Positions 14,665 through 27,957 are shown, counted from the first letter of the stretch. The stretch is DNA of 64,000 nucleotides from Candidatus Stackebrandtia faecavium (GCA_019112895.1 DXIM01000010.1:50992-114991); one strand, 5' to 3'. Notes: generated by a model not told the origin, from the sequence alone. Numbers and translations are program-made.

Positions 14665-15876
14665 TCAGCCCGCGCGCCCGGCGACAGCTTCGGGCTCCGC
14701 TTGCGCCACGACCGGCACCTTCGTCCTCAGGAATGCCGGGATCACCGCGACGGCCAGTACACCCGCCAGCACCGCGAAACCGATCGGGTAACCGGTCACG
14801 ACTGCCAGGTAGCCGAAACCGACCGCACCGATACCCATGCCGCCATCGTAACCAATATTCCACAATGCACTCACCGCTCCAACGCCCCCGGCGTCCGTAC
14901 GGTCCAGCATCATCGTCAACGTGAGGTTTTGTGTCATGCCGAAGCCCATGCCGAAGATGCACATGCCGCCGATCACCATCGCTGCGCTGCCCGTGGCGTA
15001 CATGCAGGCGGCCCCGATCGCGGCCGCCGCCACTGCGGGAGGCAGAAGCCGCGACGCCCCGAACCGGTCAGACAGCCGGCCCGCCAACCACCGAAACACC
15101 GACGTCAGCGTCGTCTGCGCCAGCAAAGCCACGACCACGACCGAGCCGGAATCGGTGATGCTCACCGCCAGCGGCAAGAAAGTCATGAACACACCCGTGG
15201 CCGTCGCTGCGGCCGTGAAGATCAACGCGGGCCGCAGCACCGCGGGCCTTGCGGCGGCGGCCGCGACACCGGACGTGCCGACGTACGGCTTGCGCGTGTT
15301 CGGGTAGGCGCCGACGGCGACCAACGCGCACAATGCACACAGGAAAGCCAGCACGAAAACCACCGTGAAGCCGACGTTCTCGCTGAGCCAGACCCCCAAG
15401 GGCAGCCCGAAGATCGACGGCACGCACACCGCGACGCCGTACAAGCCGAGGGTTTCGCCTCGCCGCCCTGGCGCCGCGAACTCGGCGGCCAGCGCGGTGG
15501 CACCGACGACGACGATCCCGAAACCGATCCCGCGCGCGAACGCCACCGCAATGATGGCGCCGAACTGGTCGAACGGCACCAGCACCAACGACGGGATAGC
15601 CAGCAGCAGATAGCCGGCGATCATGACGTTGCGGTATCCCCATCTCGCCACCAACTGCGGCATCACTAGCTCGATCGCGACGGTGGCGAGCATCATCACC
15701 CCCGTCACGAGACCGGCGTCGACGGAACTTCCGCTGGATTTGCTGGCGTACAGGGGCGCCACCGTCATCAGGAGGAAAAAGCTCGACAGCGACAGCAAGG
15801 AACCTGTCAACAACCACGCGAGTCGGGGCGTCACCAACCGCGGTTTCTGCGGCACCGAGGACACGTGGCCGGCCAC
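14665..15876 (-). CDS. MFS transporter
   Basis: About 12 hydrophobic segments; MFS motif A-like LAGRLSDRFGASR. Confidence 0.9.
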   Translation of the reverse strand: MAGHVSSVPQKPRLVTPRLAWLLTGSLLSLSSFFLLMTVAPLYASKSSGSSVDAGLVTGVMMLATVAIELVMPQLVARWGYRNVMIAGYLLLAIPSLVLVPFDQFGAIIAVAFARGIGFGIVVVGATALAAEFAAPGRRGETLGLYGVAVCVPSIFGLPLGVWLSENVGFTVVFVLAFLCALCALVAVGAYPNTRKPYVGTSGVAAAAARPAVLRPALIFTAAATATGVFMTFLPLAVSITDSGSVVVVALLAQTTLTSVFRWLAGRLSDRFGASRLLPPAVAAAAIGAACMYATGSAAMVIGGMCIFGMGFGMTQNLTLTMMLDRTDAGGVGAVSALWNIGYDGGMGIGAVGFGYLAVVTGYPIGFAVLAGVLAVAVIPAFLRTKVPVVAQAEPEAVAGRAG

Positions 15877-16047: not shown

Positions 16048-17493
16048 TCAGGCCGACCGTTGTGTGCGCGTCCATCCGTGCGGTAGGGCCACATTTCGCC
16101 GGTCGCGGTGACGGATCATCGCCTGTTTCGTTTTGCGTTCCCGCAGTCGCTGCAGTGCCGAATATTGCGCGCTGGCGGCTTCCTCCTCGACCGCCATGCG
16201 CCTGGCGAAGGACCGCACCGTGGCATAGAAGAGGTATCGCTTCGAGTTGTCGCATTTCAGGAGGCTCTCGTCGTGGAGCGTCGACAACAATGCAGATGTG
16301 TCGCGCGGCGACTGCCCAGTCAGTGCCGCGGCGGCCTCGATATCGATCGCCCGCCCCGGATAGATTGACAGCAATCGAAACAGTCGCTGGGCCGGCGCAG
16401 GCAGAACGCGGTACGAGGCGAGCAGGGCATGGTGGCTGGCTTCATGGATGGGCAGACCCCGTATGCGGGCGACATGGTCCGCCAGTGTCCAGTCCGGCTT
16501 GTCACGCAAGGCGTTACCGACGACGGTCAATTCGAGTGGCAATTGCTGACACAGGTCCACAAGGGTCCGTGTGCGTTGTGCGTCGCCGTCGATGCGATCG
16601 ACCGGATCGTAACTGCGCAGCAGCGAGACCGCATCGTCGCGGTCCAACACGTCCAGATCTATGTGCTCAGTCCCGGGCACGTCGATGGACCGGCGGCTGG
16701 TGATGATCACGATGTTGGCGCCGTAGCGCGGAATCAACGGCTCCACCTGCGCCGCCGATTCGGCATTGTCGAGGACGACGACGGCGCCTCCGGACCGCAA
16801 CATCTGACTGAATTCCTCGGCGAATCTCGCGCGCGTGAGGCTGTCGACCTGTTGCGGCTTCATCCCCAACCGTTTCAGGAAGCCGCGCAGCACCGCCACC
16901 GAATCGGCTGGCGGTTCGGCGGCGTGATAGCCGCGCAGATCGACGCTCAGCGCGGGCCCGTGCGGGTGCCCATCCTCCGCCAGGTCGGCGCAGATTCGGT
17001 GTGCCAGTTCGGTCTTTCCCACACCGGCCGGACCGCGCAGCGTGATCACCGTCGAACGGTCGGCCGCTTGACCGCCCCGGATATAACGTCTGGCCAGCTC
17101 CCGTTGCCGATCTCGCCCATGGAAACACCACGTCGGCGCGGGTATTTGTGTAGCGATCGGCACCGCCATGGATCGATGTATGCCGTCGACAATGAGCCGG
17201 CATTCCCGTTGGAGCCAACGCAACGCATCCTGGTCCAAGCCGAGCGCCGCGCCGATCTCACGCACGGTTTCCACATTAATTCGTTTACGACCACGCTGGA
17301 AATAGCCGTGGATCGTGGCGACGGACGGTGGCGGCTCCGGAACGCCCTTCTTCTGCCGCTCGTCCTTGATACGACGCCGGATCTCGCGAAAGGACGCATG
17401 CTTCGCATTACTGCGTGCGGTGGACAAGAATTCAGCTATGTCGTCAAGACTGCGGACCGCGATCGGGTCCCTACATCCGCACGCGTGAATCAT
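16048..17493 (-). CDS. HTH + NB-ARC (STAND) transcriptional regulator with no TPR tail
   Basis: N-terminal XRE-like helix region, Walker A GPAGVGKT, VLDNA Walker B, ITSRR, C..LPLEL, then ends after the winged-helix part. Confidence 0.82.
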   Translation of the reverse strand: MIHACGCRDPIAVRSLDDIAEFLSTARSNAKHASFREIRRRIKDERQKKGVPEPPPSVATIHGYFQRGRKRINVETVREIGAALGLDQDALRWLQRECRLIVDGIHRSMAVPIATQIPAPTWCFHGRDRQRELARRYIRGGQAADRSTVITLRGPAGVGKTELAHRICADLAEDGHPHGPALSVDLRGYHAAEPPADSVAVLRGFLKRLGMKPQQVDSLTRARFAEEFSQMLRSGGAVVVLDNAESAAQVEPLIPRYGANIVIITSRRSIDVPGTEHIDLDVLDRDDAVSLLRSYDPVDRIDGDAQRTRTLVDLCQQLPLELTVVGNALRDKPDWTLADHVARIRGLPIHEASHHALLASYRVLPAPAQRLFRLLSIYPGRAIDIEAAAALTGQSPRDTSALLSTLHDESLLKCDNSKRYLFYATVRSFARRMAVEEEAASAQYSALQRLRERKTKQAMIRHRDRRNVALPHGWTRTQRSA

Positions 17494-17582: not shown

Positions 17583-18854
17583 CTAGCCGAGTTCCACACC
17601 ACAGAATCGGTACAACTCCTCCAGCAGTCGCCGGCCGTCCTCCTTCGAAGCGGGAAGCGGCCCCTCCTGCGCTAGACCCGCGTCAGGAAGGTCCGTCAAG
17701 ACTTCGGCGACCGTGCCGCCACCGGCCCGCAACCTGTCGACGATCACGTCGAGTTGGTCCGAGGTCAACGCGGTCTCCACGACGCGACCGTTCACCCCGC
17801 ACACCATCGTCCCGTTGCTGGTAGGCGTCCACGCGCAGACCTCGTCCTCGCCCATGCGCACGCGCGTGTCGTCCGGCAGCGCGCACGGTTCCAGCAGAGC
17901 CGGCACCGGCTCATAGCCGCCTGCCGTCACGCACGCCACGGATCGTTGCGCCGCCCGATCCGTCAACCGCGCACCGGACAACGGCTCAATCAAAGCCGAC
18001 ACGGCCCCCGACATGGCGTCCGGCACTGAGCTGGTCAACACGCCATCCTCGTCGGGCCCTGGCGATGTCATCGCGACATCGAGCGAAGGCAGATACGACT
18101 CCATGCTCTCGCTCACGAGCATCTCGAGGTCGTAGTCCTTATAGAACTTCGGCAGCTCATAGATCGCGCGGTGCCCATCAACCGGCACCCCGACGTTCAC
18201 GCTGGTGGCAGGCGGGCCGTCCCCACTCTCGCCGACGTGGAAATAGCTCGACGGCCAATACAGCATCTGGCCCGGCTCGACATCGACTGCAAACGAGCTA
18301 GGCAGATACTCCTGGTATTTAAGCACCGTCGACACATTCTCGGTCCAGGGACGCTGGGCCCAAAACCGCATCCGCTTGCGCTCGCGCAACGCGAACATGA
18401 ACGTCGCGAACCGATCCTTATGGACACCCACCGGGCTCGACTCATAGTTGCCGTGGAACAACGTGGTGATCGCACTGGTGGCAGGGACACCGATCTGCTG
18501 CCACAATCCCCGATAAAACCTGCGCTGACGCTTCCACATCGCCCAATCGAAGATATGGAAACCGTTGACCATCAGCGCATAGGGCTGCCCGTCCAGCTGC
18601 TTGGCGACCCGGTCGATGTAGCCGTCGAAGTCACCGTCATCGTGCGTCGGCAGGTACGCGTCCGGGATGTCCTGCTGGAACCGGCCGATCGTCAGGTTCA
18701 CTGCCCGTCGGCTCGCGTTCGTAGCTGCGGTGAAAACCTCGTCGGGAACGAAAGGCGGGTCGGCCAGGTTCGTGTACAGCACCGGAGCCCGATTCCAGTA
18801 CTTGCGGGCGAAAGTCTCCCAATCGAACGTGGTCTCCACATTCACATCAGACAT
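17583..18854 (-). CDS. JmjC/cupin Fe(II)-2-oxoglutarate oxygenase (RiPP tailoring candidate)
   Basis: FARKYWNRAP, VGVHKD (HxD), PGQMLYWPSSYFH (distal His); ATG at 18854 overlaps the upstream stop. Confidence 0.85.
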   Translation of the reverse strand: MSDVNVETTFDWETFARKYWNRAPVLYTNLADPPFVPDEVFTAATNASRRAVNLTIGRFQQDIPDAYLPTHDDGDFDGYIDRVAKQLDGQPYALMVNGFHIFDWAMWKRQRRFYRGLWQQIGVPATSAITTLFHGNYESSPVGVHKDRFATFMFALRERKRMRFWAQRPWTENVSTVLKYQEYLPSSFAVDVEPGQMLYWPSSYFHVGESGDGPPATSVNVGVPVDGHRAIYELPKFYKDYDLEMLVSESMESYLPSLDVAMTSPGPDEDGVLTSSVPDAMSGAVSALIEPLSGARLTDRAAQRSVACVTAGGYEPVPALLEPCALPDDTRVRMGEDEVCAWTPTSNGTMVCGVNGRVVETALTSDQLDVIVDRLRAGGGTVAEVLTDLPDAGLAQEGPLPASKEDGRRLLEELYRFCGVELG

Positions 18855-20007
18855 CACTGCCTCCATCCTGCGCGACCATCTCGACAGCGCGTATGACGTA
18901 CAACCGTTGCAGCAGTGCCTCCAGGCCTTGCGAACCTCCACACAGTTCCTCCACCGTGACGTCGGTGCATTGCTTGAATTCCTGCAACCACTCGGCGGCC
19001 GCCTCGCCCTGCACGCTGAACGCGTGCCCGTTGGCGGCCCACATTTCGCTACCGTCCGCTTGAGGATTACGCACCACGAGACTGCTCAATCGCACTCTCG
19101 TGTCCGGTTCGAACTCGATCGGCTGCCGTGGATCAGGGGCCGGATCCAGGCATGCGGCGCTCGTCTGCTGCGTCCACAGGATCGCCGAAATGCGCGCCTC
19201 CGATTCCGGGTCCAAGTTGTCGCGCATGGTTTCGGCCGTCGTCTTAAACGGACCCGCCGCAGGAATCCGGCCGTGATACGAATCCAACTGCAAGTACGGG
19301 ACTTTATCGACATCCAAAGCGTTGTCCACCGCCAGCGCGCCGCGATTGAAGACCGATGCCGACAGTTGCCTGGAATCCTCGATGACCTGTACCTGCACGG
19401 CCATGTAGTCGTCGTGGAACGATTCCGTGCGCGCGAACCCTGCCGGGTGGTAGACCACGTCGCCCGTTCCGACCGTCATGTCGACGGTCTTGCCTCCGCC
19501 ACTGATCGTGATGTCGGCTCCACCCGAAAGCACCAACGTGATCCCCGCCTGCGCCACCTCATCGGCCGGTAGATGGACCTCGAAATTGGATCCCAACCGG
19601 ATGAACGTCTTGACCGGGACGACCGGGTAACCCACGCGTTTCCACAGTGATCGAACGAGGTCCCGCATCTGGGACCACAGACGGTAGTTGCCCATGAAAC
19701 CTTCGGCGATCCGCACCAAGAACCCGGCGGCGTCGAGCTCGGCACGCATTTTCTTCGCATACGTGCGCGGGTCGTCTCCGGAGTCCGGCAGCAAGTCATG
19801 CAACGCCCGCGTCCGCCCCATCGGGGTCCATACCGCCACGTCGGGCAATGCCCGCATCCGCGTGCCGGCGCGAAAAGGCGCGCACACGTCGATGACCGTC
19901 GAGAACACGTCGCCGGTCGGCAACGGTGAACCGCCGAACGCGTTGGGCACATGCACCGGTTCCCGGCCCCAATGCTTCGCCAGCGTGTGTATCCACGAAT
20001 CGTTCAT
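18847..20007 (-). CDS. JmjC/cupin-like protein lacking the metal-binding triad
   Basis: Same architecture as neighbour (KHWGREPVH, GDVVYHPAG, C-terminal helical domain) but no HxD and no distal His. Confidence 0.7.
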   Translation of the reverse strand: MNDSWIHTLAKHWGREPVHVPNAFGGSPLPTGDVFSTVIDVCAPFRAGTRMRALPDVAVWTPMGRTRALHDLLPDSGDDPRTYAKKMRAELDAAGFLVRIAEGFMGNYRLWSQMRDLVRSLWKRVGYPVVPVKTFIRLGSNFEVHLPADEVAQAGITLVLSGGADITISGGGKTVDMTVGTGDVVYHPAGFARTESFHDDYMAVQVQVIEDSRQLSASVFNRGALAVDNALDVDKVPYLQLDSYHGRIPAAGPFKTTAETMRDNLDPESEARISAILWTQQTSAACLDPAPDPRQPIEFEPDTRVRLSSLVVRNPQADGSEMWAANGHAFSVQGEAAAEWLQEFKQCTDVTVEELCGGSQGLEALLQRLYVIRAVEMVAQDGGSDV

Positions 20008-22391
20008 GTGTTGACCGCCTTCGACAATGGGAAACGGTTGTGCAGGATCTGTGCGTATTCCGTCAGGGAGACCATGCCAATCTCCTCCCGACGTTTCTCG
20101 ACGTCATCGGCGCTTCCGTCGAGCTGACAGGGCACCAACGCGTCACCGTCGCGTTCGAACTTCGTGCCGTACCGTTGTGGACGGTCGTCCTGTAGCCGCA
20201 TCGCGTCCGTCAGATACGCCACCATCTTCAACAATTGGCGATCCCGTCGCGCCTCATCGCGCAGCAACGCCAGGCAGTGCCGCTGAAACGGCGTGGTCGC
20301 CCCGTGTCGGTGCTGCAGCAAGGCCACCGCCGATTCTGCGGCGGCCCGACCGACCTTGTCCGCGCTCGGCCACCCGTGCACCGCCACAACATCGGTGAGG
20401 TAATCCGTCGCGCTGCGTGTCAACCGCTCGAGCTTCGCCGCGGCCTCGTCGTCGCTGAATCCGCCCTGCGCCCAGGGCTCGCGGATCGCGCCGTCCACAT
20501 CGCCGATGCGTTCGAGCTTCTCGGCGACCTCCGCGTAGTCGCCGACTTCGTGATGGGGCCGATCCTGCGGCTCGATCGGTTCCAGGTTCACGGTGTCGTC
20601 GTTCCAGCAGTAATTGAGGTCCTGGCCGAACTCGCTGAATCCGAACCGTACCTGGCCGCACGCGATATCCCACAGGTCGATGGAGACATCCTCGTCATGG
20701 TCGGCCCATGCGGCGATCGGCACGTTCGCGCGAACGTATTCGACCGCATCCCGGACGAAAACACCGAAGCCGGTCATGTCCCACGCGCGACCGTGCAACG
20801 CATCCTCGCTCGGTATGACGCAGGGGCGCGGGACGTCGTCACCGGCAACCCGAAACCGCGTGGTCGTGTCGCCGCGGGTCGCCTGTTTAAGCAGGGACCC
20901 TCCTTGCGCACTCACGAAGAAGTAGGGCACATCGCCGTTGTGCAACTGGTTCTGTTCGTCCTTGGTGAATTCCAGTTCCGGACTCTTATCCGGTGTGAAC
21001 AGTCGACGCTGGAGCTCGTCGTCGTAGACGGCCGTCGGTCGTGGCACCACGCGAATTCGATTGTCCCGGCGATGGGCCGCCAAATTCCGCGCGATCCGGT
21101 CTCGCTGCCCGTTCAGGAGCACCCAGGCCTCGAAGGCGCCGCGCAGAAACTGCGGCAGATAAGCACTGTAGCCAACGTTTCCGTTGCTGTCGGTGACGAC
21201 GGTACGCGTCTCACCGCGAGCCCACGGCTTCCGGATTCGGCATATCCGCGGGGCGTCGTCACCATCGAAATCGAGGTACGCCCACGGTGCATCGACCCCG
21301 CATTCCCGTTGCCGGTCTTCGAAACCGACATGGTGAAGCGCGTCGTCGGGGCCGGGAATGAGACCCGTCCCCCACAGTCGTTGAATATCCGAAAAGTACA
21401 CCTCGATATCGACCGGTACATAACGGAGCCGACCGTCAGGACCGTTGGGGCCAACGAGCACATTGCCTTCGATCAGGTCGCCGATTCCGAACGCGAAACA
21501 CACGGCCGCGAGCGCGCCCGCATCGCGCCACATCTCGGCCGCCACGTCCGGCTCAACCACGGGGCCGGACAGACGCGGAGTCAGTGGCGCCATCTGCGTC
21601 GGCGCCGACACCCACTCCTGCCACAGGTAATCGTGGCTGTCGTAACCGGCGCCGCGCCAACAATGCAGTTGCGGCAGTCGGAATCGCCCATCGGCCAGAT
21701 CGTTGATCAGCCCAAAAGTGGAGGGTTCGTCCCCGAGACTGTGGCGAGCCGAGAAGAGGGCGTCGCCGCGCGCCGGACTCGGTTTGTACGCCACGACCGC
21801 TCCCCCCTGGAGCGTCACCCGCAGGACCCGCGATCCCCCATTGTGGGTCTCGGCTCCACATGCGGATACGCCCGTCACCGGCCCCTCAAAGGCCGGTTCG
21901 TCTATCCAGGAGCAAGCCATGTCGCTGTCGAGCCGCTCAAGGAAAATCTCGAGCGCGCGTGTCAACTGGCGGCGGCGGTGGGCGGCTCGGCTCGCGGCCC
22001 GCGCCGCATGCGTGAACGCGCAGACCGTGAAGATCTCCGAAAGTAGTGGCCCGAACAGGTCCGTGTTAGTGATGGCCAGTACACCGGGCTTGACCCGCTC
22101 CGCATGTTTCTCGACCATGGTCTTGCACCATGAGTCGAGGGCGACGATGGTCTTGACGACGGGCCGAAAGGTTGCGTGGCCGAGGACGGCGCCCAAGGCG
22201 TCCACCCGGGCCGGGTTGAGGCCCGGTTCTTCGCAGACGATGAGATCGTCCTGCGCAGGCCGAGCGATCGGCGGAAAAATACCGGCCACGCTCGCGGTAC
22301 TCGCAAGGTGGTCGAGGAGAACGCGCACCGGTTCGGGCAAGGCGGCAACTTCCTCGGTGCCGGCTTTGGGTAGCAGTCGTGTCATTTCCAT
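20004..22391 (-). CDS. LanM-type dehydratase domain (DUF4135) fused to C-terminal DUF6624; no LanC cyclase domain
   Basis: ETHNGGSRV, YKP, DLIEGN, PVDIE, RVVPRPTAVY (LanM kinase/eliminase motifs); C-terminal HGWP..KVG..A..A..LLQH..FQRHCL..AYLTD..PQRYGT (DUF6624); ggagg RBS before ATG at 22391. Confidence 0.85.
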   Translation of the reverse strand: MEMTRLLPKAGTEEVAALPEPVRVLLDHLASTASVAGIFPPIARPAQDDLIVCEEPGLNPARVDALGAVLGHATFRPVVKTIVALDSWCKTMVEKHAERVKPGVLAITNTDLFGPLLSEIFTVCAFTHAARAASRAAHRRRQLTRALEIFLERLDSDMACSWIDEPAFEGPVTGVSACGAETHNGGSRVLRVTLQGGAVVAYKPSPARGDALFSARHSLGDEPSTFGLINDLADGRFRLPQLHCWRGAGYDSHDYLWQEWVSAPTQMAPLTPRLSGPVVEPDVAAEMWRDAGALAAVCFAFGIGDLIEGNVLVGPNGPDGRLRYVPVDIEVYFSDIQRLWGTGLIPGPDDALHHVGFEDRQRECGVDAPWAYLDFDGDDAPRICRIRKPWARGETRTVVTDSNGNVGYSAYLPQFLRGAFEAWVLLNGQRDRIARNLAAHRRDNRIRVVPRPTAVYDDELQRRLFTPDKSPELEFTKDEQNQLHNGDVPYFFVSAQGGSLLKQATRGDTTTRFRVAGDDVPRPCVIPSEDALHGRAWDMTGFGVFVRDAVEYVRANVPIAAWADHDEDVSIDLWDIACGQVRFGFSEFGQDLNYCWNDDTVNLEPIEPQDRPHHEVGDYAEVAEKLERIGDVDGAIREPWAQGGFSDDEAAAKLERLTRSATDYLTDVVAVHGWPSADKVGRAAAESAVALLQHRHGATTPFQRHCLALLRDEARRDRQLLKMVAYLTDAMRLQDDRPQRYGTKFERDGDALVPCQLDGSADDVEKRREEIGMVSLTEYAQILHNRFPLSKAVNT

Positions 22392-22439
22392 GGCCACCTC
22401 CGGCGTAGCGCGTAAAACTGTGGAATTTGTAGCGGTGTA

Positions 22440-22470
22440 CCGCGGCGCACACCGTCGGTGTGCGCCGCGG
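22440..22470. terminator. Strong hairpin between the precursor genes and the modifying-enzyme gene
   Basis: Perfect 14-bp stem ccgcggcgcacacc-gtc-ggtgtgcgccgcgg, 8 nt after precursor stop. Confidence 0.8.
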
Positions 22471-22478
22471 CCCAGCCG

Positions 22479-22607
22479 TTAAAGCGGGGTGCAGTAAATG
22501 TTCATGCAAGTGACGGGGTCCTTGGAAGGCTGCTTCGGCAGCTCTTTCGTCAGCTCGCCAAGAACGACATCCACCGAACGGGTCTTCGATGCTTTTTCTT
22601 TGGACAT
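22479..22607 (-). CDS. RiPP precursor peptide A1 (42 aa)
   Basis: MSKEKASKTRSVDVVLGELTKELPKQPSKDPVTCMNIYCTPL; RBS gaggaa; ORF track starts it too far upstream. Confidence 0.9.
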   Translation of the reverse strand: MSKEKASKTRSVDVVLGELTKELPKQPSKDPVTCMNIYCTPL

Positions 22608-22825
22608 GGATTTCCTCTTCTCAAGGTCAGGCGAAGCGAACACTTCGCCATAGTTCTGGGCCCATCGATTTTCCAATGGCCCAAGGCCGGAACGGATCAA
22701 CAGATCGTTACACCGCCGGCCAGCTCAGGGGGATCTCATGTCATGGCCCGCTGGGCACACCCACTGTCATTCGGCTACTCACGCGATGCGTGTCGGCCAT
22801 TCACCTGTGCCGACTCATGTGTGGC

Positions 22826-22856
22826 GGGCCGCGCATGCTCTCTGGCTGCGCGGCCC
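22826..22856. terminator. Hairpin downstream of precursor A2
   Basis: gggccgcgca-11 nt-tgcgcggccc, 10-bp stem. Confidence 0.55.
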
Positions 22857-22879
22857 ATTAGTCATGCGATTGGGAATCC

Positions 22880-23014
22880 CTACCAGGGTTCACAATAGAC
22901 TCTTGTGCAGGTGACAGGGTCCTTGTTCTGTTCCCGCTGGCGAGGTAGTTCTTTCGACAGTTCGCCGAGGACTACATCAACCGGACGGGACTTGCCTTCA
23001 TTGATTTTGGACAT
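22880..23014 (-). CDS. RiPP precursor peptide A2 (44 aa)
   Basis: Manual translation: MSKINEGKSRPVDVVLGELSKELPRQREQNKDPVTCTRVYCEPW; RBS gaggat; below the ORF-track cutoff. Confidence 0.9.
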   Translation of the reverse strand: MSKINEGKSRPVDVVLGELSKELPRQREQNKDPVTCTRVYCEPW

Positions 23015-23084
23015 AGCATCCTCGAATCAATCAGTATCGGCAATTACAGCGGCCGAAGCCGAATGGATTCTCTGAGCGCGTTAA

Positions 23085-23210
23085 TTACACGCAGTACATG
23101 CTCGCACAGGTCGGCCAGTCCTTCGATTCACGTTTGCTCGGCAGCTCCTTGGACAGGTCACCAAGGACTACATCAACCGGGCGGGCCTTTTCTGTCTGAA
23201 CTTTGGACAT
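23085..23210 (-). CDS. RiPP precursor peptide A3 (41 aa)
   Basis: Manual translation: MSKVQTEKARPVDVVLGDLSKELPSKRESKDWPTCASMYCV; RBS ggagga; below the ORF-track cutoff. Confidence 0.9.
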   Translation of the reverse strand: MSKVQTEKARPVDVVLGDLSKELPSKRESKDWPTCASMYCV

Positions 23211-24258: not shown

Positions 24259-25518
24259 CTATGCGGGCTGTCGGTGCCGCTGGATTGCCAGCTCACCGCT
24301 GACGTGGAAGTCGCGCGATGTCGCCACGATCGCGTCCTCAACTTCACGGGATGTACGGCCACGGAACCGGAAGCGTCCGCCGACATGTTCGTAATACGCA
24401 TCGGCCGCCGGCAGGATTTCGCCCGGCCGAAGCAACGCCTCTGCGTACGGTCCCGGTACACGCCCCACCATCGACGTGGCATGAGTGATGCGGCACGGCC
24501 GCTGGGTGGGTGCCGGGGCCAACAACCAGCCGGCCACGTCCGTTCCGGGAGCGGGGGCGACGGCATCAATGGAGCGCGGCCACGGCAGGGCGCGCTGGCC
24601 GGCCAGCAAACGAAACGCCGACTCCATGAGGTCGTAACCGTGCACCTCGCGCCACAGGTACGGGATCTCGGCGCCACCGACACGAGCGCCCACTTCCAGG
24701 AAGGCGCACGACCCCGTGACACGGTCGACGAACAGTTCAAGATGGAACACGACCGGTTTACGGCTCAGCGCCCGCATCACGCCGGTCGAAAACGCCGTGA
24801 TGCTGCGCATCAGGTCGGGATCGTCTTCTTCGACCGAACCGAGCGTATCGCCGGTCCGAAAACCCAAGCAGTTGTTGACATAACGCGAGGCCCGCAATGG
24901 TCCCATCGTCGTACCGTCGAAGTAGCCGTCCACATGGTAGATCTGGCGCCCGTCGAATGCCTGAACGAGGTGGGGTTCTCCTTCCGCGAATTCGAGACCG
25001 GCACATTCGCTGGGACCATCCACTTTGATGACGCCGGCGCTGGAGCTGCCCGCGCACGGTTTCACGACGACCGGCCAGCCGTGATCTCTACCGAACTCGA
25101 CGACGTCGTGTGGGTGACGCACAGGCGCGTGGGCCGGAACCGCCAGACCCGCCCTCGATACGAGACCCGCCATGACGAGCTTGTCGCGGAACGGAATGAC
25201 ATCGTCAATGTCAGGACCGGGGCATCCCCATTGCTGACGCAATTGTGCACCGACAAGAAGGTCGTCTTCCTTCAACGCGATGATCGCTTCCGGGCGGCCC
25301 TGATTCTCGGCCAGGCGCTTCACGGCATCAGCCACCGAAGGTAGATCGTCGGTAGCGTCCACAATCGCGACTTCGGCTGCGCTGGCCGGCAACGATGGCG
25401 CGCCGACTTCGGTGGTCACATAGCTGACGGCGTAACGCGAATGGTCCACGTAGCGTTCGTAGTGCGCATAGTCGGCCAACCAACGGTGAACGATCACCAT
25501 GTGTGGGCGTGCAGCCAT
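24259..25518 (-). CDS. ATP-grasp ligase (amino-acid ligase-like)
   Basis: FRDKLVM, VVVKP..GSSSAGV, YHVDG, VFHLELF, FLEVGARVGGA; RBS ggagga before ATG at 25518. Confidence 0.88.
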   Translation of the reverse strand: MAARPHMVIVHRWLADYAHYERYVDHSRYAVSYVTTEVGAPSLPASAAEVAIVDATDDLPSVADAVKRLAENQGRPEAIIALKEDDLLVGAQLRQQWGCPGPDIDDVIPFRDKLVMAGLVSRAGLAVPAHAPVRHPHDVVEFGRDHGWPVVVKPCAGSSSAGVIKVDGPSECAGLEFAEGEPHLVQAFDGRQIYHVDGYFDGTTMGPLRASRYVNNCLGFRTGDTLGSVEEDDPDLMRSITAFSTGVMRALSRKPVVFHLELFVDRVTGSCAFLEVGARVGGAEIPYLWREVHGYDLMESAFRLLAGQRALPWPRSIDAVAPAPGTDVAGWLLAPAPTQRPCRITHATSMVGRVPGPYAEALLRPGEILPAADAYYEHVGGRFRFRGRTSREVEDAIVATSRDFHVSGELAIQRHRQPA

Positions 25519-26774
25519 AACAGCTCCTCCCCCACCTCGTAGAAGTCCGGACCATCCAAATAGCGCACGGTGCCGAAGTCCCGCATCACGACTTCCTCCA
25601 CCGAGTCGGCCAGGTTCACCACGAGCGGACACGACATGTCGTCGACGGTGCGTCGAAGCTGGCCGCCCTCCGGAACCAGCATGCGGATGTCGTGCAGGCT
25701 CTCCAATTCGCGCAGACGAGACATCTTCGGGTAGGACCGCAGCGGCGCCTCAATGTGCGACACGGTCATCGCCGACACGAAATGCTTCGTCAGTCGGTAG
25801 TCGTTCTTCCAGCGCGCGGCGAAACGATCCGGATCCGTGTACGCGTCGACGATCCATTCCAGTTGGGCTTCGCCGATGCACTGCTGCGAGTAGTAAGGAA
25901 TGTCGAGCCCTGCCATACGCGCCGCGGCCTCGACCAGGCACGGTCCGGTCGGGGTCATCTTGATCTCCAGATGCGAGGCGCCGTGCGACACGCCAAGCGC
26001 GTCGAGGACGTTGGCCGCATACGGCAGGAGACGGTCCTGCACCTCACCGCACTTGGGCAGGAGTCGGATTCCCGTGGTGAGGTCGACGATCCCGTTGGCC
26101 GAGATCTTCTCGTATTTCCAGATGTCCGTAACATGATGCTGGCCGTCGCGACTCACCGAATCCACGATGTATTCGCCGCCGGCAAGGTATTCCTGAGCCA
26201 CGACCGCCTCGTTGCGTGCCGAGAACACGCTGTCGGACGCCAGGATCGAATGATATGCAGCCACCGATTCCTCTGGTGTGTCACAGAAGGCGACGCCGTC
26301 GCCGGCCGCACTGCGGATCGGCTTGACCACGACCCGACCGCCAATGTCGGCGTGCCACTGCGCCAACTGCTGAGGCGACGACACCAACAACTGGGCGGTG
26401 GCGCGCAAGCCTGCGGCCCGCACGGTCTCCATCTGCACGTATTTATCGCGCCGGGCGACGCTGTAGCCGGTGCCGTTGGTCAACAGCCCCATAGCCTCGC
26501 TGAGTTGGTCGGTCAGCTCGACCCCGCTTTCGCCTCCGGCAATGACCGCCTCGGGAGCGTACGGCTCCAACTGCGCCATAGTCGCGTTGATATCGCCGTC
26601 ATGCACAATGTTGACCGCGTACGGCGACAGATCGAAATCGGATCGGTACACCAACGGGGTTTCCGGTGTACTTTGGACCCTGATGACGTCGTACCCGGCT
26701 TTATGGAAATGCGGTGCCAGACGCCGCGTCGGCGAGTAGGCGTCGACCACGACGACATACTTTTTCGTTCTCAT
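25494..26774 (-). CDS. ATP-grasp ligase (NikS/L-amino-acid ligase-like)
   Basis: MRTKKYVVVVDAYSP, RRDKYVQ, VVVKPIRSAAGDGV, QEYLAGGEYIVD, HLEIKMT, VEAAAR. Confidence 0.88.
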   Translation of the reverse strand: MRTKKYVVVVDAYSPTRRLAPHFHKAGYDVIRVQSTPETPLVYRSDFDLSPYAVNIVHDGDINATMAQLEPYAPEAVIAGGESGVELTDQLSEAMGLLTNGTGYSVARRDKYVQMETVRAAGLRATAQLLVSSPQQLAQWHADIGGRVVVKPIRSAAGDGVAFCDTPEESVAAYHSILASDSVFSARNEAVVAQEYLAGGEYIVDSVSRDGQHHVTDIWKYEKISANGIVDLTTGIRLLPKCGEVQDRLLPYAANVLDALGVSHGASHLEIKMTPTGPCLVEAAARMAGLDIPYYSQQCIGEAQLEWIVDAYTDPDRFAARWKNDYRLTKHFVSAMTVSHIEAPLRSYPKMSRLRELESLHDIRMLVPEGGQLRRTVDDMSCPLVVNLADSVEEVVMRDFGTVRYLDGPDFYEVGEELLWLHAHTW

Positions 26775-26827
26775 AACGGACCCTTCACCTTCAACGCGAT
26801 TGCCATCCGCCCAAACATGACCAATCG

Positions 26828-26893
26828 CGCTACAGATTCGCTGCAGATCGACCGCACGTCGGTGTCCAGCGCTTTTACAGCGGATCTGTAGCG
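26828..26893. promoter_or_regulatory. Putative SARP-type binding repeats in a divergent promoter
   Basis: 18-bp inverted repeat (16/18 match) with 11-bp periodicity on both strands: cgct-acagatt-cgct-gcagatc-gacc-gcacgtc (+) and cgct-acagatc-cgct-gtaaaag-cgct-ggacacc (-). Confidence 0.55.
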
Positions 26894-26955
26894 GGCGTTG
26901 GAAAGCTCGAGTTGCTCCCCTTTCGGCAGGGGCCACGCAACTATCGAAACGGTGA

Positions 26956-27957
26956 ATGATGTCCAACAATGAAAGCACGCTACGGCGCATCATCTGGCTC
27001 TTCCCAGACCGGGAATCGACCCGCACGCAGGCAAAATGGAGCGGGGCGTTTTGGGAGACCTATGCGCAGATCGCCAACGATATGGGGCTGTCCTTCAAGC
27101 GCGTAGCCCCCGAAGCGGTGGTGGTCGATGCCTTGAACCCACAGGATCCGAAGTTCTATATCGACGGCGAACGCGTCACGCCGCACGACACGGTCTTCAT
27201 CTCGACCCCGTACACATTGCCGTACCAGACGGTGGATGCGTTCAATCAGTTCACTTTGTACGCTGTGCTGGAGGAAGCCGGATTCTATCTTCCACACCCG
27301 ACGGACATGGCGGCTGTCGGCAACGACAAGCTGGCCACGTTGCTGCGTTTCCGGGACTGCCCGGTACCGCCGGTACCGACGGTCCGCATCGGCACCGGCC
27401 GTGACCTGCTGTACGACGAGTACGAAGTCGCGATCGAGGACCTTCCCTACCCTGCTTTCACCAAGCCCGCCGGCTGGTGCGCGTCACGCGGCATCAACCT
27501 TGCGCGCGACGCCCACGACGTGCGGGGATTGCTCAGCCTGGCACAGGGTGGGGACACGACCATGGTGTTGCAACCGTTCTTGGGCGACAACACCGCCGAT
27601 TACCGCGTCTTCATGATCGACGGTAAGCCACACACCGTCATGGTGCGCGCGTCCGGCGACGGCGCCATCTATCCACAATTCACCACCGGCGCCACCATGT
27701 GGTTCTGTCCGCTCCCGGAGGAACTGTCCGAGGCGATGTCGTGGATCGCCAAGAAGCTGCCGGTCCCGTTCGCCTGCGTCGACTTCCTTCACGACGGCGA
27801 GAAGTTCTGGTTCTCCGAGATCGAAATGGACGGCGGGATTCTGTGCCCCGATCCGTCCGACCCTCAAGCCGTGGCCACTCAGCATTCCATCATTCGGGAT
27901 CGCTTCGAGGCCTATCGCACCCGTCACCAGGCGTTCCTTCAGGAGGTTAAAGCATGA
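26956..27957 (+). CDS. ATP-grasp fold protein (RimK/GshB-like)
   Basis: NDKLATL, FTKPAGWCASRGI, VLQPFLG, DYRVFMIDG, DFLHDG...EIE. Confidence 0.8.
   Translation: MMSNNESTLRRIIWLFPDRESTRTQAKWSGAFWETYAQIANDMGLSFKRVAPEAVVVDALNPQDPKFYIDGERVTPHDTVFISTPYTLPYQTVDAFNQFTLYAVLEEAGFYLPHPTDMAAVGNDKLATLLRFRDCPVPPVPTVRIGTGRDLLYDEYEVAIEDLPYPAFTKPAGWCASRGINLARDAHDVRGLLSLAQGGDTTMVLQPFLGDNTADYRVFMIDGKPHTVMVRASGDGAIYPQFTTGATMWFCPLPEELSEAMSWIAKKLPVPFACVDFLHDGEKFWFSEIEMDGGILCPDPSDPQAVATQHSIIRDRFEAYRTRHQAFLQEVKA

What the first reader, a model, noticed from the sequence alone, without database searches (positions are those of the whole stretch)
17583..23210. Candidate new RiPP class: three TC-x3-YC precursors, a cyclase-less LanM-type dehydratase fused to DUF6624, and a cupin pair
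Seen in sequence: six co-oriented minus-strand genes. Three short peptide genes share a leader and a Thr/Cys/Tyr-containing C-terminal core. They are followed by a 795-aa enzyme and two cupins whose start and stop codons overlap. Established knowledge: DUF4135 is the kinase-like dehydratase half of class II lanthipeptide synthetases (LctM/CylM), normally fused to a Zn-dependent LanC cyclase; Fe/2OG oxygenases hydroxylate RiPPs (CinX in cinnamycin, CanE in canucin). Inference: this combination, with no LanC, no C39 peptidase/ABC exporter and no YcaO or radical SAM enzyme, matches no characterised RiPP class that I recognise. It could give a Dhb- or phosphoThr-containing, hydroxylated, Cys-bridged peptide.
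Basis: partly seen in the sequence, partly recalled or inferred. Interest (0 to 1): 0.95.

Follow-up and report, generated by a model that had tools for sequence, protein, structure and literature searches.

The report
Conserved cyclase-less dehydratase/JmjC peptide (RiPP) cassette
The six genes are a real peptide natural-product cassette, kept together in about 90 other bacterial species, and I found no description of it in the papers I could read, although a 2025 paper I could not open may cover its key reaction.

Summary
The minus strand carries three precursor genes (41, 44 and 42 aa), a DUF4135-DUF6624 fusion, and two overlapping JmjC-type genes.

The cassette is not chance. In 84 of 84 related loci, a small ORF with a FDLVIGDLE-type leader and a (S/T)C-x3-6-YC-x1-4 core sits upstream of the fusion gene. 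The two JmjC paralogues follow it in 83 and 81 of these loci.

- **Fusion enzyme:** it keeps every checked CylM kinase and phosphate-elimination residue except His349.
- **Downstream paralogue (CupB):** a NO66/YcfD-like 2-oxoglutarate oxygenase with an invariant HxD...H triad.
- **Upstream paralogue (CupA):** full length but without the triad.
- **DUF6624:** a confident helical model with no match in the PDB. It belongs to a superfamily of more than 10,000 clusters.
- **LanC:** a stand-alone LanC occurs only in one derived clade of 27 loci. The window has none.

Most likely the invariant Ser/Thr is dehydrated and CupB oxidatively modifies the invariant Tyr/Cys pair. The chemistry is inferred.

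An alpha-ketoglutarate-dependent Cys-Tyr macrocyclase in RiPPs was published in 2025 (Xia et al., JACS). That paper is not held, so I cannot exclude that it describes this family. "New class" is therefore only partly supported.

The parts
23085..23210 (-). Precursor A3 (41 aa): MSKVQTEKARPVDVVLGDLSKELPSKRESKDWP-TCASMYC-V
   Evidence: The identical peptide is called as a gene on L085. The ribosome-binding site is GGAGGA.
22880..23014 (-). Precursor A2 (44 aa): ...VDVVLGELSKELPRQREQNKDPV-TCTRVYC-EPW
22479..22607 (-). Precursor A1 (42 aa): ...VDVVLGELTKELPKQPSKDPV-TCMNIYC-TPL
22439..22471 (-). Perfect 15-bp GC-rich hairpin just after the A1 stop codon, between the last precursor gene and the enzyme genes. 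It is probably an attenuator or a transcript-stabilising element that sets the precursor-to-enzyme ratio (inference).
   Evidence: MFE -45.3 kcal/mol for the 94-nt segment, z -3.5, 0 of 200 shuffles fold as well. It has no U-tail and was not called by the terminator scan.
20004..22397 (-). Fusion enzyme (795 aa from the ATG at 22391; 797 aa from the GTG at 22397): an N-terminal LanM-type kinase/dehydratase (DUF4135 plus its C-terminal extension, residues about 1-610) and a C-terminal DUF6624 domain.
   Evidence: Pfam. A family profile hits CylM 5dzt and LicM2 6st5. The catalytic residues are invariant in 83 sequences.
20028..20516 (-). DUF6624 domain of the fusion (residues 628-790), sitting where LanM has its LanC cyclase.
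   Evidence: Pfam E 1.4e-10. AF2 model pLDDT 91, helical with a small beta-hairpin. No PDB fold match, best E 0.9. Invariant residues are D635, R639, W642, W676, Q695, H696, D731, Q741 and R770. C708 (81 of 82) and K746 (81 of 82) are nearly invariant.
18847..20007 (-). CupA (386 aa): a full-length paralogue of CupB without the metal-binding triad. It is probably a non-catalytic partner or peptide-binding subunit.
   Evidence: hhalign of CupB against CupA gives probability 100%, E 1.2e-42, 382 columns. There is no invariant His or Asp, and the triad positions vary across 82 sequences. It is present in 83 of 84 loci.
17583..18854 (-). CupB (423 aa): a ribosomal-oxygenase-type JmjC Fe(II)/2OG oxygenase with a C-terminal beta-strands-then-three-helices (winged-helix/RRE-like) domain.
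   Evidence: AF2 pLDDT 85, pTM 0.82. Foldseek top hits are NO66, MINA53 and YcfD, E 4e-16 to 1e-13, over the full length. H146, D148, H207 and K161 are invariant in 80 of 80 sequences, numbered on the 424-aa translation 17583-18857.
16048..17493 (-). NB-ARC/AfsR-like STAND NTPase with an N-terminal HTH, probably the pathway regulator in this sub-branch. It is not part of the conserved core.
   Evidence: Pfam NB-ARC E 1.4e-9; NCBIfam partial hits to AfsR and the RiPP-associated HaaT. It follows CupB in the closest relatives L085, L087, L088 and L089, but in only 3 of the 84 other loci.

Best explanation
This is a four-function RiPP biosynthetic cassette of precursor(s), dehydratase-DUF6624 fusion, CupA and CupB. 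It turns the C-terminal heptapeptide (S/T)-C-x3-Y-C of each precursor into a small, constrained, oxidatively modified peptide.

**Shown here**
- The cassette and the core motif are conserved across about 90 species.
- The LanM-type domain keeps all the CylM residues for Ser/Thr phosphorylation and for phosphate elimination.
- CupB is an intact ROX-type Fe/2OG oxygenase.
- CupA is a triad-less full-length paralogue of CupB.
- LanC is absent from the ancestral form of the family.

**Inferred**
1. The N-terminal FDLVIGDLE-type leader (VDVVLG(E/D)L in this window) docks the peptide, probably on the winged-helix/RRE-like C-terminal domains of the CupA/CupB pair.
2. The fusion enzyme phosphorylates the invariant Ser/Thr and eliminates the phosphate to give Dha/Dhb.
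3. CupB, probably as a heterodimer with the dead CupA, uses Fe(II), 2OG and O2 to oxidise the invariant Tyr/Cys pair. The most likely outcome is a Cys-Tyr crosslink, less likely a plain hydroxylation.
4. The other Cys adds to Dha/Dhb to give a (methyl)lanthionine without LanC. This happens either spontaneously in the pre-organised ring or with help from DUF6624.

Because S/T-C and Y-C are always adjacent while the spacer varies from 3 to 6 residues, the two bridges would be nested (residue 1 to 7 and residue 2 to 6), like two neighbouring rungs of a hairpin.

The confidence of 0.55 is for the overall scheme: a RiPP cassette, dehydration of the invariant Ser/Thr, and CupB-dependent oxidation at the Tyr/Cys pair with CupA as a non-catalytic partner. 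That this is a RiPP cassette at all I put at about 0.9. The specific nested Cys-Tyr plus (Me)Lan topology I put at about 0.3.
For: **Conservation**
- A genome scan found 93 species genomes with a relative of the fusion enzyme.
- 84 of 84 loci have upstream precursors. There are 81 unique sequences, Tyr is present in 100% even though the pattern allowed Y, F or W, and the tail after the last Cys is always 1-4 residues.
- CupA is present in 83 of 84 loci and CupB in 81 of 84, in fixed order. The absences are contig ends and one decayed locus.

**Dehydratase**
- The family profile hits CylM (E 9e-5). CylM D252, H254, K274, D347, N352, D364, R506 and T512 align to E183, H185, K205, D307, N312, D330, R449 and T455.
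- All are invariant in 83 sequences, with T or S at position 455.
- The 27-locus clade that adds extra Thr/Cys to the core also adds a LanC. That is expected if the fusion makes dehydro-residues for thiol addition.

**Oxygenase**
- Searches support CupB as described above.
- The spacings H146+15=K161 and H146 to H207 (61 residues) match NO66, MINA53 and YcfD. This comparison rests on my memory of the ROX structures.
- CupA is a dead paralogue.

**Precedent**
- An alpha-KG enzyme forming a Cys-Tyr crosslink in a RiPP is reported, as cited in PMC12636437.
- alpha-KG hydroxylases with RRE domains acting on RiPPs are known, for example MppG, and JmjC PF08007+RRE fusions are described.
Against: - There are no product data of any kind. 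Every chemical step is inferred from sequence.
- CylM His349 is not conserved here (Ile, Gly or Ser at position 309), so the catalytic loop differs from LanM.
- Nothing shows that a thioether forms without LanC. The Dhb could stay open, or the two Cys could simply form a disulfide.
- Solved ROX enzymes are hydroxylases, not crosslinkers.
- DUF6624 is a huge, mostly stand-alone family, partly with lipoprotein-like N-termini. Its role here could be unrelated to cyclisation.
- No protease or exporter is conserved with the cassette.
- The RRE-like assignment rests on predicted secondary-structure order only.
Confidence: 0.55

Rival explanations
1. Same cassette, simpler chemistry. CupB is an ordinary side-chain beta-hydroxylase (for example of Tyr or a spacer residue). 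The Cys residues form a disulfide or a single (Me)Lan with the Dhb, so there is no Cys-Tyr crosslink.
For: All solved structural neighbours of CupB are hydroxylases: NO66, MINA53, YcfD and FIH. Most alpha-KG enzymes characterised in RiPP pathways hydroxylate (PMC12636437 introduction; MppG).
Against: A tailoring hydroxylation does not explain the absolute invariance of Tyr next to Cys while the spacer residues vary freely. A Cys-Tyr crosslinking alpha-KG enzyme now has precedent.
Confidence: 0.25
2. This family is the same as, or a close sister of, the system already characterised by Xia et al. (JACS 2025, alpha-ketoglutarate-dependent dioxygenase-catalysed macrocyclisation in RiPPs). The window would then hold a divergent member of a known class. 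This rival concerns novelty, not mechanism, and is compatible with the best explanation.
For: That paper reports a Cys-Tyr crosslink made by an alpha-KG enzyme in a RiPP. It is cited where bacterial JmjC (PF08007)+RRE proteins in RiPP contexts are discussed. The 27 loci that pair DUF4135 with LanC lie in well-known Streptomyces species and match the domain rule that Walker et al. used to call class II lanthipeptide clusters, so they were probably easy to find.
Against: None of the held papers that name DUF4135, PF13575, DUF6624 or PF20329 describes this cassette. All database names for the proteins are generic. No close homologue of CupB or the fusion has a solved structure. The paper itself could not be read.
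Confidence: 0.4
3. The DUF4135 domain does not dehydrate the invariant Ser/Thr. Instead it acts as a kinase only, leaving phospho-Thr, or it activates a hydroxyl that CupB installs (for example beta-hydroxy-Tyr) for elimination and thiol capture at the Tyr beta-carbon.
For: The catalytic loop lacks the CylM His349 equivalent. In dehydrazoles, CcaM shows that divergent DUF4135 enzymes can depend on earlier modification of the core (PMC10676384).
Against: Both elimination residues (R449, T455) are conserved like the kinase residues. Ser/Thr directly before Cys is invariant. The clade with more Ser/Thr and Cys recruits a LanC.
Confidence: 0.08
4. The small ORFs are not substrates (for example small regulators or chance ORFs), and the three enzymes act on something else.
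For: No product is known, and no protease or exporter is conserved with the cassette.
Against: 84 of 84 loci carry them directly upstream on the same strand. They combine a conserved leader, a hypervariable linker and an invariant C-terminal motif, occur in 1-3 copies and have ribosome-binding sites.
Confidence: 0.03

Closest known systems
Class II lanthipeptide synthetases (LanM: CylM 5dzt, LicM2 6st5, ProcM)
   Same: The N-terminal domain is homologous (Pfam DUF4135; the profile hits CylM and LicM2). The phosphorylation residues (D252, H254, K274, D347, N352, D364 equivalents) and the elimination residues (R506, T512 equivalents) are conserved. The substrates are leader-bearing peptides with Ser/Thr and Cys.
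   Different: There is no LanC domain; DUF6624 sits in its place. The His349 equivalent is lost. Only one Ser/Thr is conserved in the core. The enzyme is always paired with two JmjC-type proteins. NCBIfam LanM scores 32 bits against a cut-off of 304.
LanM-type dehydratases that do not make lanthionine: CcaM of the dehydrazoles (PMC10676384); PoyF/AerF of the proteusins
   Same: A DUF4135 dehydratase is used in a non-lanthipeptide RiPP. It makes dehydro-amino acids without a Zn-dependent LanC.
   Different: CcaM is fused to a Zn-less class III cyclase domain and works with a YcaO. PoyF works with radical SAM enzymes. None of them carries DUF6624 or a JmjC pair, and the core peptides are unrelated.
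alpha-KG-dependent Cys-Tyr macrocyclase in RiPPs (Xia et al., J Am Chem Soc 2025, 147:26693, doi 10.1021/jacs.5c07332)
   Same: An Fe/alpha-KG enzyme acts on a RiPP whose reported crosslink joins Cys and Tyr. These are the two residues, besides Ser/Thr, that are invariant in this family's core.
   Different: Unknown, because the paper is not in the held library. I could not compare enzyme family, precursor, organism or accompanying genes.
Ribosomal oxygenases (ROX: human NO66/RIOX1, MINA53/RIOX2, E. coli YcfD/RoxA)
   Same: CupB matches them over the full length in fold (Foldseek E about 1e-15, probability 1.0). It has the HxD...H triad and the Lys 15 residues after the first His. The three-domain layout is the same: JmjC, helical domain, winged helix.
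   Different: Identity is only 14-18%. The substrate is a dedicated small peptide rather than a ribosomal protein. CupB comes with a triad-less paralogue encoded just upstream.
RRE-bearing alpha-KG hydroxylases of RiPP pathways (MppG; JmjC PF08007+RRE fusions noted in PMC12710340)
   Same: [quoted passage not shown]
   Different: Those use Nif11-type leaders in cyanobacteria and carry out hydroxylation. No active/dead pair has been described, and there is no DUF4135-DUF6624 partner.
DUF6624 proteins in graspetide gene clusters (groups 18, 20, 23, 42; PMC13097080)
   Same: The same Pfam domain is flagged there as a possible undiscovered biosynthetic enzyme class in RiPP clusters.
   Different: There it is a separate protein beside ATP-grasp ligases. 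Here it is fused to a LanM-type dehydratase, and the ATP-grasp genes next to this window's cassette are not conserved with it (0 of 84 loci).

Membership tests
Class II lanthipeptide system (LanM) | DUF4135 kinase/dehydratase domain with its catalytic residues | tested here: met
   Pfam E 2.8e-16. CylM alignment. Invariance in 83 sequences. The His349 equivalent is not conserved.
Class II lanthipeptide system (LanM) | Zn-dependent LanC-like cyclase domain fused to the dehydratase | tested here: not met
   The C-terminus is DUF6624, with no fold match to LanC or to anything else in the PDB. No LanC was found in the 64-kb window. The full-length LanM model TIGR03897 scores 32 bits against a cut-off of 304.
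Class II lanthipeptide system (LanM) | (Methyl)lanthionine in the product | not testable with these tools
   This needs MS/NMR of the product. The core has the required Ser/Thr and Cys.
RiPP biosynthetic gene cluster (general) | A short precursor gene with a conserved leader and a core, next to the modifying enzymes and conserved across taxa | tested here: met
   84 of 84 loci, 81 unique precursors plus the 3 in the window.
RiPP biosynthetic gene cluster (general) | A leader-binding element (RRE) in one of the enzymes | tested here: inconclusive
   The CupB model ends in four strands followed by three helices (residues 332-417). CupA aligns through this region. No binding prediction or RRE-specific model was run.
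JmjC / ROX Fe(II)-2OG oxygenases | Double-stranded beta-helix with an HxD/E...H iron triad and a basic 2OG-binding residue | tested here: met
   For CupB, H146, D148, H207 and K161 are invariant in 80 of 80 sequences, with Foldseek matches to NO66, MINA53 and YcfD. For CupA the feature is not met: the triad positions are variable.
alpha-KG Cys-Tyr macrocyclase RiPPs (Xia et al. 2025) | Homology of enzyme and precursor to the published system | not testable with these tools
   The paper is not held. Only one-sentence descriptions exist in citing papers. The core does have an invariant Cys and Tyr.
Graspetides | An ATP-grasp ligase conserved with the precursor, and a core with Asp/Glu plus Ser/Thr/Lys | tested here: not met
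   The three ATP-grasp genes at 24259-27957 have no counterpart in any of the 84 loci. The cores lack the acidic residues.
Pfam DUF6624 (PF20329) | A match above the gathering score that carries the family signature residues | tested here: met
   41.4 bits against a cut-off of 27. The GWP, QH, D, Q-YGT and RR motifs are shared with stand-alone members.

The most novel reading that the evidence does not exclude
This is a distinct, still undescribed RiPP class. A LanM-type dehydratase and an active/dead JmjC heterodimer would together build a doubly bridged hairpin (Dhb/Dha1-Cys7 thioether nested around a Cys2-Tyr6 crosslink) with no LanC. DUF6624 would act as the thiol-addition or substrate-positioning catalyst. 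That would give the first function for a superfamily of more than 10,000 clusters of unknown function, which also occurs in graspetide clusters.
Probability: 0.3. Interest if true: 0.85.

Novelty: new variant of a known kind. Interest (0 to 1): 0.62.

Why it matters
If this family is uncharacterised, the compact four-gene cassette offers several things:
- It is present in about 90 species, including common Streptomyces of the S. griseus and scab groups, Kitasatospora, Nonomuraea, Kribbella and some Lysobacterales. It could therefore define a new family of small constrained peptides.
- It is a natural test of how a LanM-type dehydratase works without a cyclase.
- It is an example of an active/dead JmjC pair acting on a peptide.
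- It provides a tractable assay for DUF6624, a very large domain family with no known function that has already been flagged in graspetide clusters.

The minimal heptapeptide core with a variable 3-6-residue loop would also be attractive for engineering constrained peptides.

If Xia et al. (2025) already describes this family, the window still adds three things: a deeply divergent member (no more than 43% identity to any other fusion enzyme), three precursors with a basic rather than acidic leader, and the family-wide picture of LanC-less ancestry and a dead paralogue.

Tried and rejected
**Hypotheses tested and rejected**
The window's AKR and its three ATP-grasp proteins find no counterpart in the 84 loci.
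- **A hidden LanC in the window.** None was found.
- **DUF6624 as a cryptic LanC-like or other known fold.** Foldseek against the PDB gave nothing below E 0.9 despite a pLDDT of 91.

**Searches that led nowhere**
- **Context of stand-alone DUF6624 relatives.** The word-indexed protein search found none. The exhaustive profile search found more than 10,000, but their genomic contexts cannot be looked up with the tools allowed.
- **Conserved neighbours by all-against-all ORF clustering**. The result was swamped by spurious high-GC ORFs. Only the LanC clade came out of it, after a Pfam check.
- **Promoter and terminator scan.** It was no better than shuffles.
- **Literature.** The one paper that might (Xia et al. 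2025) is not held.

- The look-up of sequencing runs, so there is no transcription evidence.
- The genome search and the fetch from genomes, so I could not search the rest of the genome for a LanC, check relatives, or name the organism.
Full report
**1. What is in the window**

ORF listing and Pfam/NCBIfam scans confirm six co-oriented minus-strand genes.

| Gene | Coordinates | Size | Notes |
|---|---|---|---|
| Precursor A3 | 23085-23210 | 41 aa | core ...WP-TCASMYC-V |
| Precursor A2 | 22880-23014 | 44 aa | core ...PV-TCTRVYC-EPW |
| Precursor A1 | 22479-22607 | 42 aa | core ...PV-TCMNIYC-TPL |
| Fusion enzyme | 20004-22391/22397 | 795/797 aa | DUF4135 (E 2.8e-16) + DUF6624 (E 1.4e-10) |
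| CupA | 18847-20007 | 386 aa | ATG overlaps the fusion's TGA (ATGA) |
| CupB | 17583-18854 | 423 aa | overlaps the end of CupA by 8 nt |

- Each precursor has a GGAGG-like ribosome-binding site. All three share the leader MSK...VDVVLG(E/D)L(S/T)KELP.
- A metagenome contig that is 99.56% identical (L085) has independent gene calls of 41, 44, 42, 795, 386 and 423 aa, with identical peptides.
- A perfect 15-bp GC hairpin lies right after the last precursor gene, at 22439-22471 (segment MFE -45 kcal/mol, z -3.5). This is the usual place for an attenuator between a RiPP precursor gene and its enzyme genes. That reading is an inference.
- Downstream lie an NB-ARC/AfsR-like regulator gene (16048-17493) and an MFS transporter gene (14665-15876).
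- No LanC was found in the window. Pfam scans of the flanking ORFs tested found no YcaO, radical SAM, C39 peptidase or ABC transporter. The window beyond about 28 kb was not scanned.
- Flanking genes include a mycolic-acid cyclopropane synthase and a mycothiol-dependent isomerase-like protein. These suggest a Mycobacteriales-type actinomycete.

**2. The cassette is a conserved family, not chance**

- A word-indexed protein search found only 13 relatives with the same DUF4135+DUF6624 architecture, at 37-41% identity.
- A pattern scan of one genome per species found 93 genomes. The 80 loci kept come from Streptomyces, Kitasatospora, Nonomuraea, Actinoallomurus, Kribbella, Catenulispora, Embleya, Sphaerisporangium, Stackebrandtia and a Nocardiopsaceae MAG, plus four Lysobacterales (Luteimonas and relatives).
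- In every one of the 84 loci held at that point, a small same-strand ORF upstream of the fusion gene carries two features. One is a leader motif, typically (F/L)DLVIG(D/E)LEQ(E/D)(I/V)P. The other is a C-terminal core (S/T)-C-x(3-6)-Y-C-x(1-4).
- Among 81 unique precursors:
  - the aromatic residue is Tyr in all, although the search pattern allowed Y, F or W;
  - the spacer is 3 residues in 60, 4 in 15, 5 in 4 and 6 in 2;
  - the tail after the last Cys is never absent;
  - fifteen loci have two precursors, and the window has three.
- CupA follows the fusion gene in 83 of 84 loci and CupB in 81 of 84. The exceptions are contig ends (L055, L083) and one decayed Kribbella locus that keeps only a CupB fragment (L071). 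In the two Luteimonas loci CupA lies upstream of the fusion gene instead.
- The window's AKR and its three ATP-grasp proteins have no counterpart in any locus. The NB-ARC gene recurs in 3 of them and in the window's nearest relatives.
- The conserved unit is therefore precursor(s) + fusion + CupA + CupB.

**3. The fusion enzyme**

A profile of the family hits CylM (5dzt, E 9.4e-5) and LicM2. Counting along the printed alignment gives these equivalences.

| Role in CylM | CylM residue | This family |
|---|---|---|
| Phosphorylation | D252 / H254 | E183 / H185 |
| Phosphorylation | K274 | K205 |
| Phosphorylation | D347 | D307 |
| Phosphorylation | N352 | N312 |
| Phosphorylation | D364 | D330 |
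| Phosphate elimination | R506 | R449 |
| Phosphate elimination | T512 | T455 |

- The assignment of these CylM residues to phosphorylation or elimination rests on my memory of the CylM structure paper.
- All are invariant in 83 sequences, with T or S at position 455.
- The His349 equivalent (position 309) is Ile, Gly or Ser, so the catalytic loop is altered there.
- The machinery for both phosphorylation and elimination is therefore intact. The invariant Ser/Thr of the core is the obvious substrate.

The C-terminal 170 residues are DUF6624.
- An AF2 model built on 25 sequences is confident (pLDDT 91, pTM 0.85) and mostly helical with a small hairpin. It has no significant match in the PDB (best E 0.9).
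- The domain has many invariant polar residues: D635, R639, W642, W676, Q695, H696, D731, Q741 and R770. C708 and K746 are each conserved in 81 of 82 sequences.
- An exhaustive profile search shows DUF6624 is a very large family: 10,564 representative clusters at E<1e-3. Most are stand-alone proteins of 180-230 aa, some are tandem, and some are fused.
- The signature GWP...QH...D...Q-YGT...RR is shared across the superfamily, and several stand-alone members have lipoprotein-like N-termini.
- Its role here is unknown. I consider substrate docking or help with thiol addition the two reasonable options.

**4. The 'cupin pair'**

- **CupB.** The model (pLDDT 85, pTM 0.82) matches the ribosomal oxygenases NO66, MINA53 and YcfD over the full length (E 4e-16 to 1e-13, probability 1.0). 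Weaker hits are YxbC and FIH.
  - H146-x-D148...H207 and K161 are invariant in 80 of 80 sequences.
  - The spacings (Lys at +15, second His at +61) are those I recall for NO66, MINA53 and YcfD.
  - The model ends in four strands and three helices (residues 332-417). This order is the one described for RRE-like domains fused to JmjC PF08007 proteins (PMC12710340). I did not test binding.
- **CupA.** It is a full-length paralogue of CupB (hhalign probability 100%, E 1.2e-42, 382 columns). It has no invariant His or Asp, and the triad positions vary freely across 82 sequences.
- **Reading.** Solved ROX enzymes are dimers, as far as I recall. A CupA-CupB heterodimer with one catalytic and one peptide-presenting subunit is therefore the natural reading. 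This is an inference.

**5. LanC appears once, late**

- In 27 of 84 loci a stand-alone LanC (PF05147, E 1.8e-43) follows CupB.
- These loci are the S. griseus, S. anulatus, S. californicus and S. globisporus group, S. acidiscabies and S. niveiscabiei, and Nonomuraea. They carry cores of the type ...SGSGTACG(S/T)CA(S/G)xYCC.
- On a tree of the fusion proteins these 27 form one clade (SH-aLRT 100) nested inside the LanC-less family.
- The ancestral cassette therefore works without LanC. The clade that added Thr and Cys to the core also recruited a cyclase. This indirectly supports the idea that the fusion enzyme supplies dehydro-residues for thiol addition.
- The window's protein is a long branch. 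It groups with Stackebrandtia, possibly through long-branch attraction, and is at most 43% identical to any other member.

**6. Mechanism**

*Shown:* conservation, intact dehydratase residues, an intact oxygenase, a dead paralogue, and no LanC in the ancestral form.

*Inferred:*
1. The leader docks the peptide on the enzymes.
2. The invariant Ser/Thr is dehydrated to Dha/Dhb.
3. CupB oxidises the invariant Tyr/Cys pair.
4. The remaining Cys is captured by Dha/Dhb.

S/T-C and Y-C are always adjacent while the loop between them varies from 3 to 6 residues. Two nested bridges (1-7 and 2-6) would explain that pattern. The alternatives are plain hydroxylation plus a disulfide, a kinase-only enzyme, or activation of a CupB-installed hydroxyl. 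They are listed as rivals with the mass-spectrometric results that would separate them.

**7. Comparison with what is known**

- LanM-type dehydratases that do not make lanthionine are known. CcaM in the dehydrazoles is fused to a Zn-less class III cyclase and works with a YcaO (PMC10676384). PoyF/AerF in the proteusins are a second example, from memory.
- alpha-KG and JmjC hydroxylases in RiPP pathways are known: the curacozole, biphenomycin and MppG pathways.
  - That paper is not held, and its five citing papers give no further detail.
  - I estimate about 40% that it describes this very family.
- In favour of the family being undescribed:
  - no held paper that names DUF4135, PF13575, DUF6624 or PF20329 describes the cassette;
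  - all database names are generic, such as 'DUF4135 domain-containing protein', 'JmjC domain-containing protein' or 'cupin';
  - no close homologue has a solved structure.

**8. Verdict**

The specific chemistry is inferred. The claim of a new class cannot be settled without one paper I could not read. I rate it a new variant of a known kind, with interest 0.62.

I therefore obtained no transcription data, no whole-genome search for LanC and no organism identity.

Noticed in passing
L064:10755-14247 (S. griseus NCTC13033) and 26 other loci: A derived clade of the family adds a stand-alone LanC directly after CupB. In L064 a 5'-nucleotidase-family gene and a Methyltransf_19 SAM methyltransferase follow it. 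Its cores (...SGSGTACG(S/T)CA(S/G)xYCC) have four Cys.
   Followed up: partly
window 20028-20516 (DUF6624 domain) and proteins P0135-P0280: DUF6624 is a very large family of unknown function (10,564 representative clusters). It has a shared GWP/QH/D/Q-YGT/RR signature and no PDB fold match. Several stand-alone members have lipoprotein-like N-termini, so the family is not restricted to RiPP pathways.
   Followed up: partly
window 22439-22471 (-) and 22800-22860 (-): Strong GC-rich hairpins without U-tails follow precursor genes A1 and A2 (segment z-scores -3.5 and -2.1). They are possible attenuators or RNA-stabilising elements within the operon.
   Followed up: partly
L061 and L063 (Luteimonas); L075 and L082 (Lysobacterales): Gammaproteobacterial versions of the cassette exist. 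In Luteimonas the gene order is rearranged (CupA upstream of the fusion gene), the leader is divergent (LDRLIGQMQKQTP), and the precursor lies more than 1.3 kb upstream. This suggests horizontal transfer out of the Actinomycetota.
   Followed up: no
L071:8148-8426 (Kribbella sp. DT2): This is a decayed cassette. The precursor and fusion gene are intact, but CupA is missing and only a 97-residue fragment of CupB remains.
   Followed up: partly
window 24259-27957: Three ATP-grasp genes and an aldo-keto reductase gene lie directly upstream of the precursors. They are not conserved with the cassette in any other locus, so they probably belong to a separate neighbouring cluster.
   Followed up: partly
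window 16048-17493: The NB-ARC regulator gives partial NCBIfam hits to AfsR and to HaaT, the TPR protein of cyclophane RiPP clusters. A homologue follows CupB in the window's closest relatives (L085, L087-L089) but rarely elsewhere.
   Followed up: partly
proteins P0041, P0044, P0065, P0109, P0117, P0121: CupB-like JmjC proteins at 38-45% identity also occur in Micromonospora, Plantactinospora, Fodinicola, Myxococcus and Archangium. The cassette or a sister system may therefore be wider than the 93 genomes found with the fusion-protein patterns.
   Followed up: no
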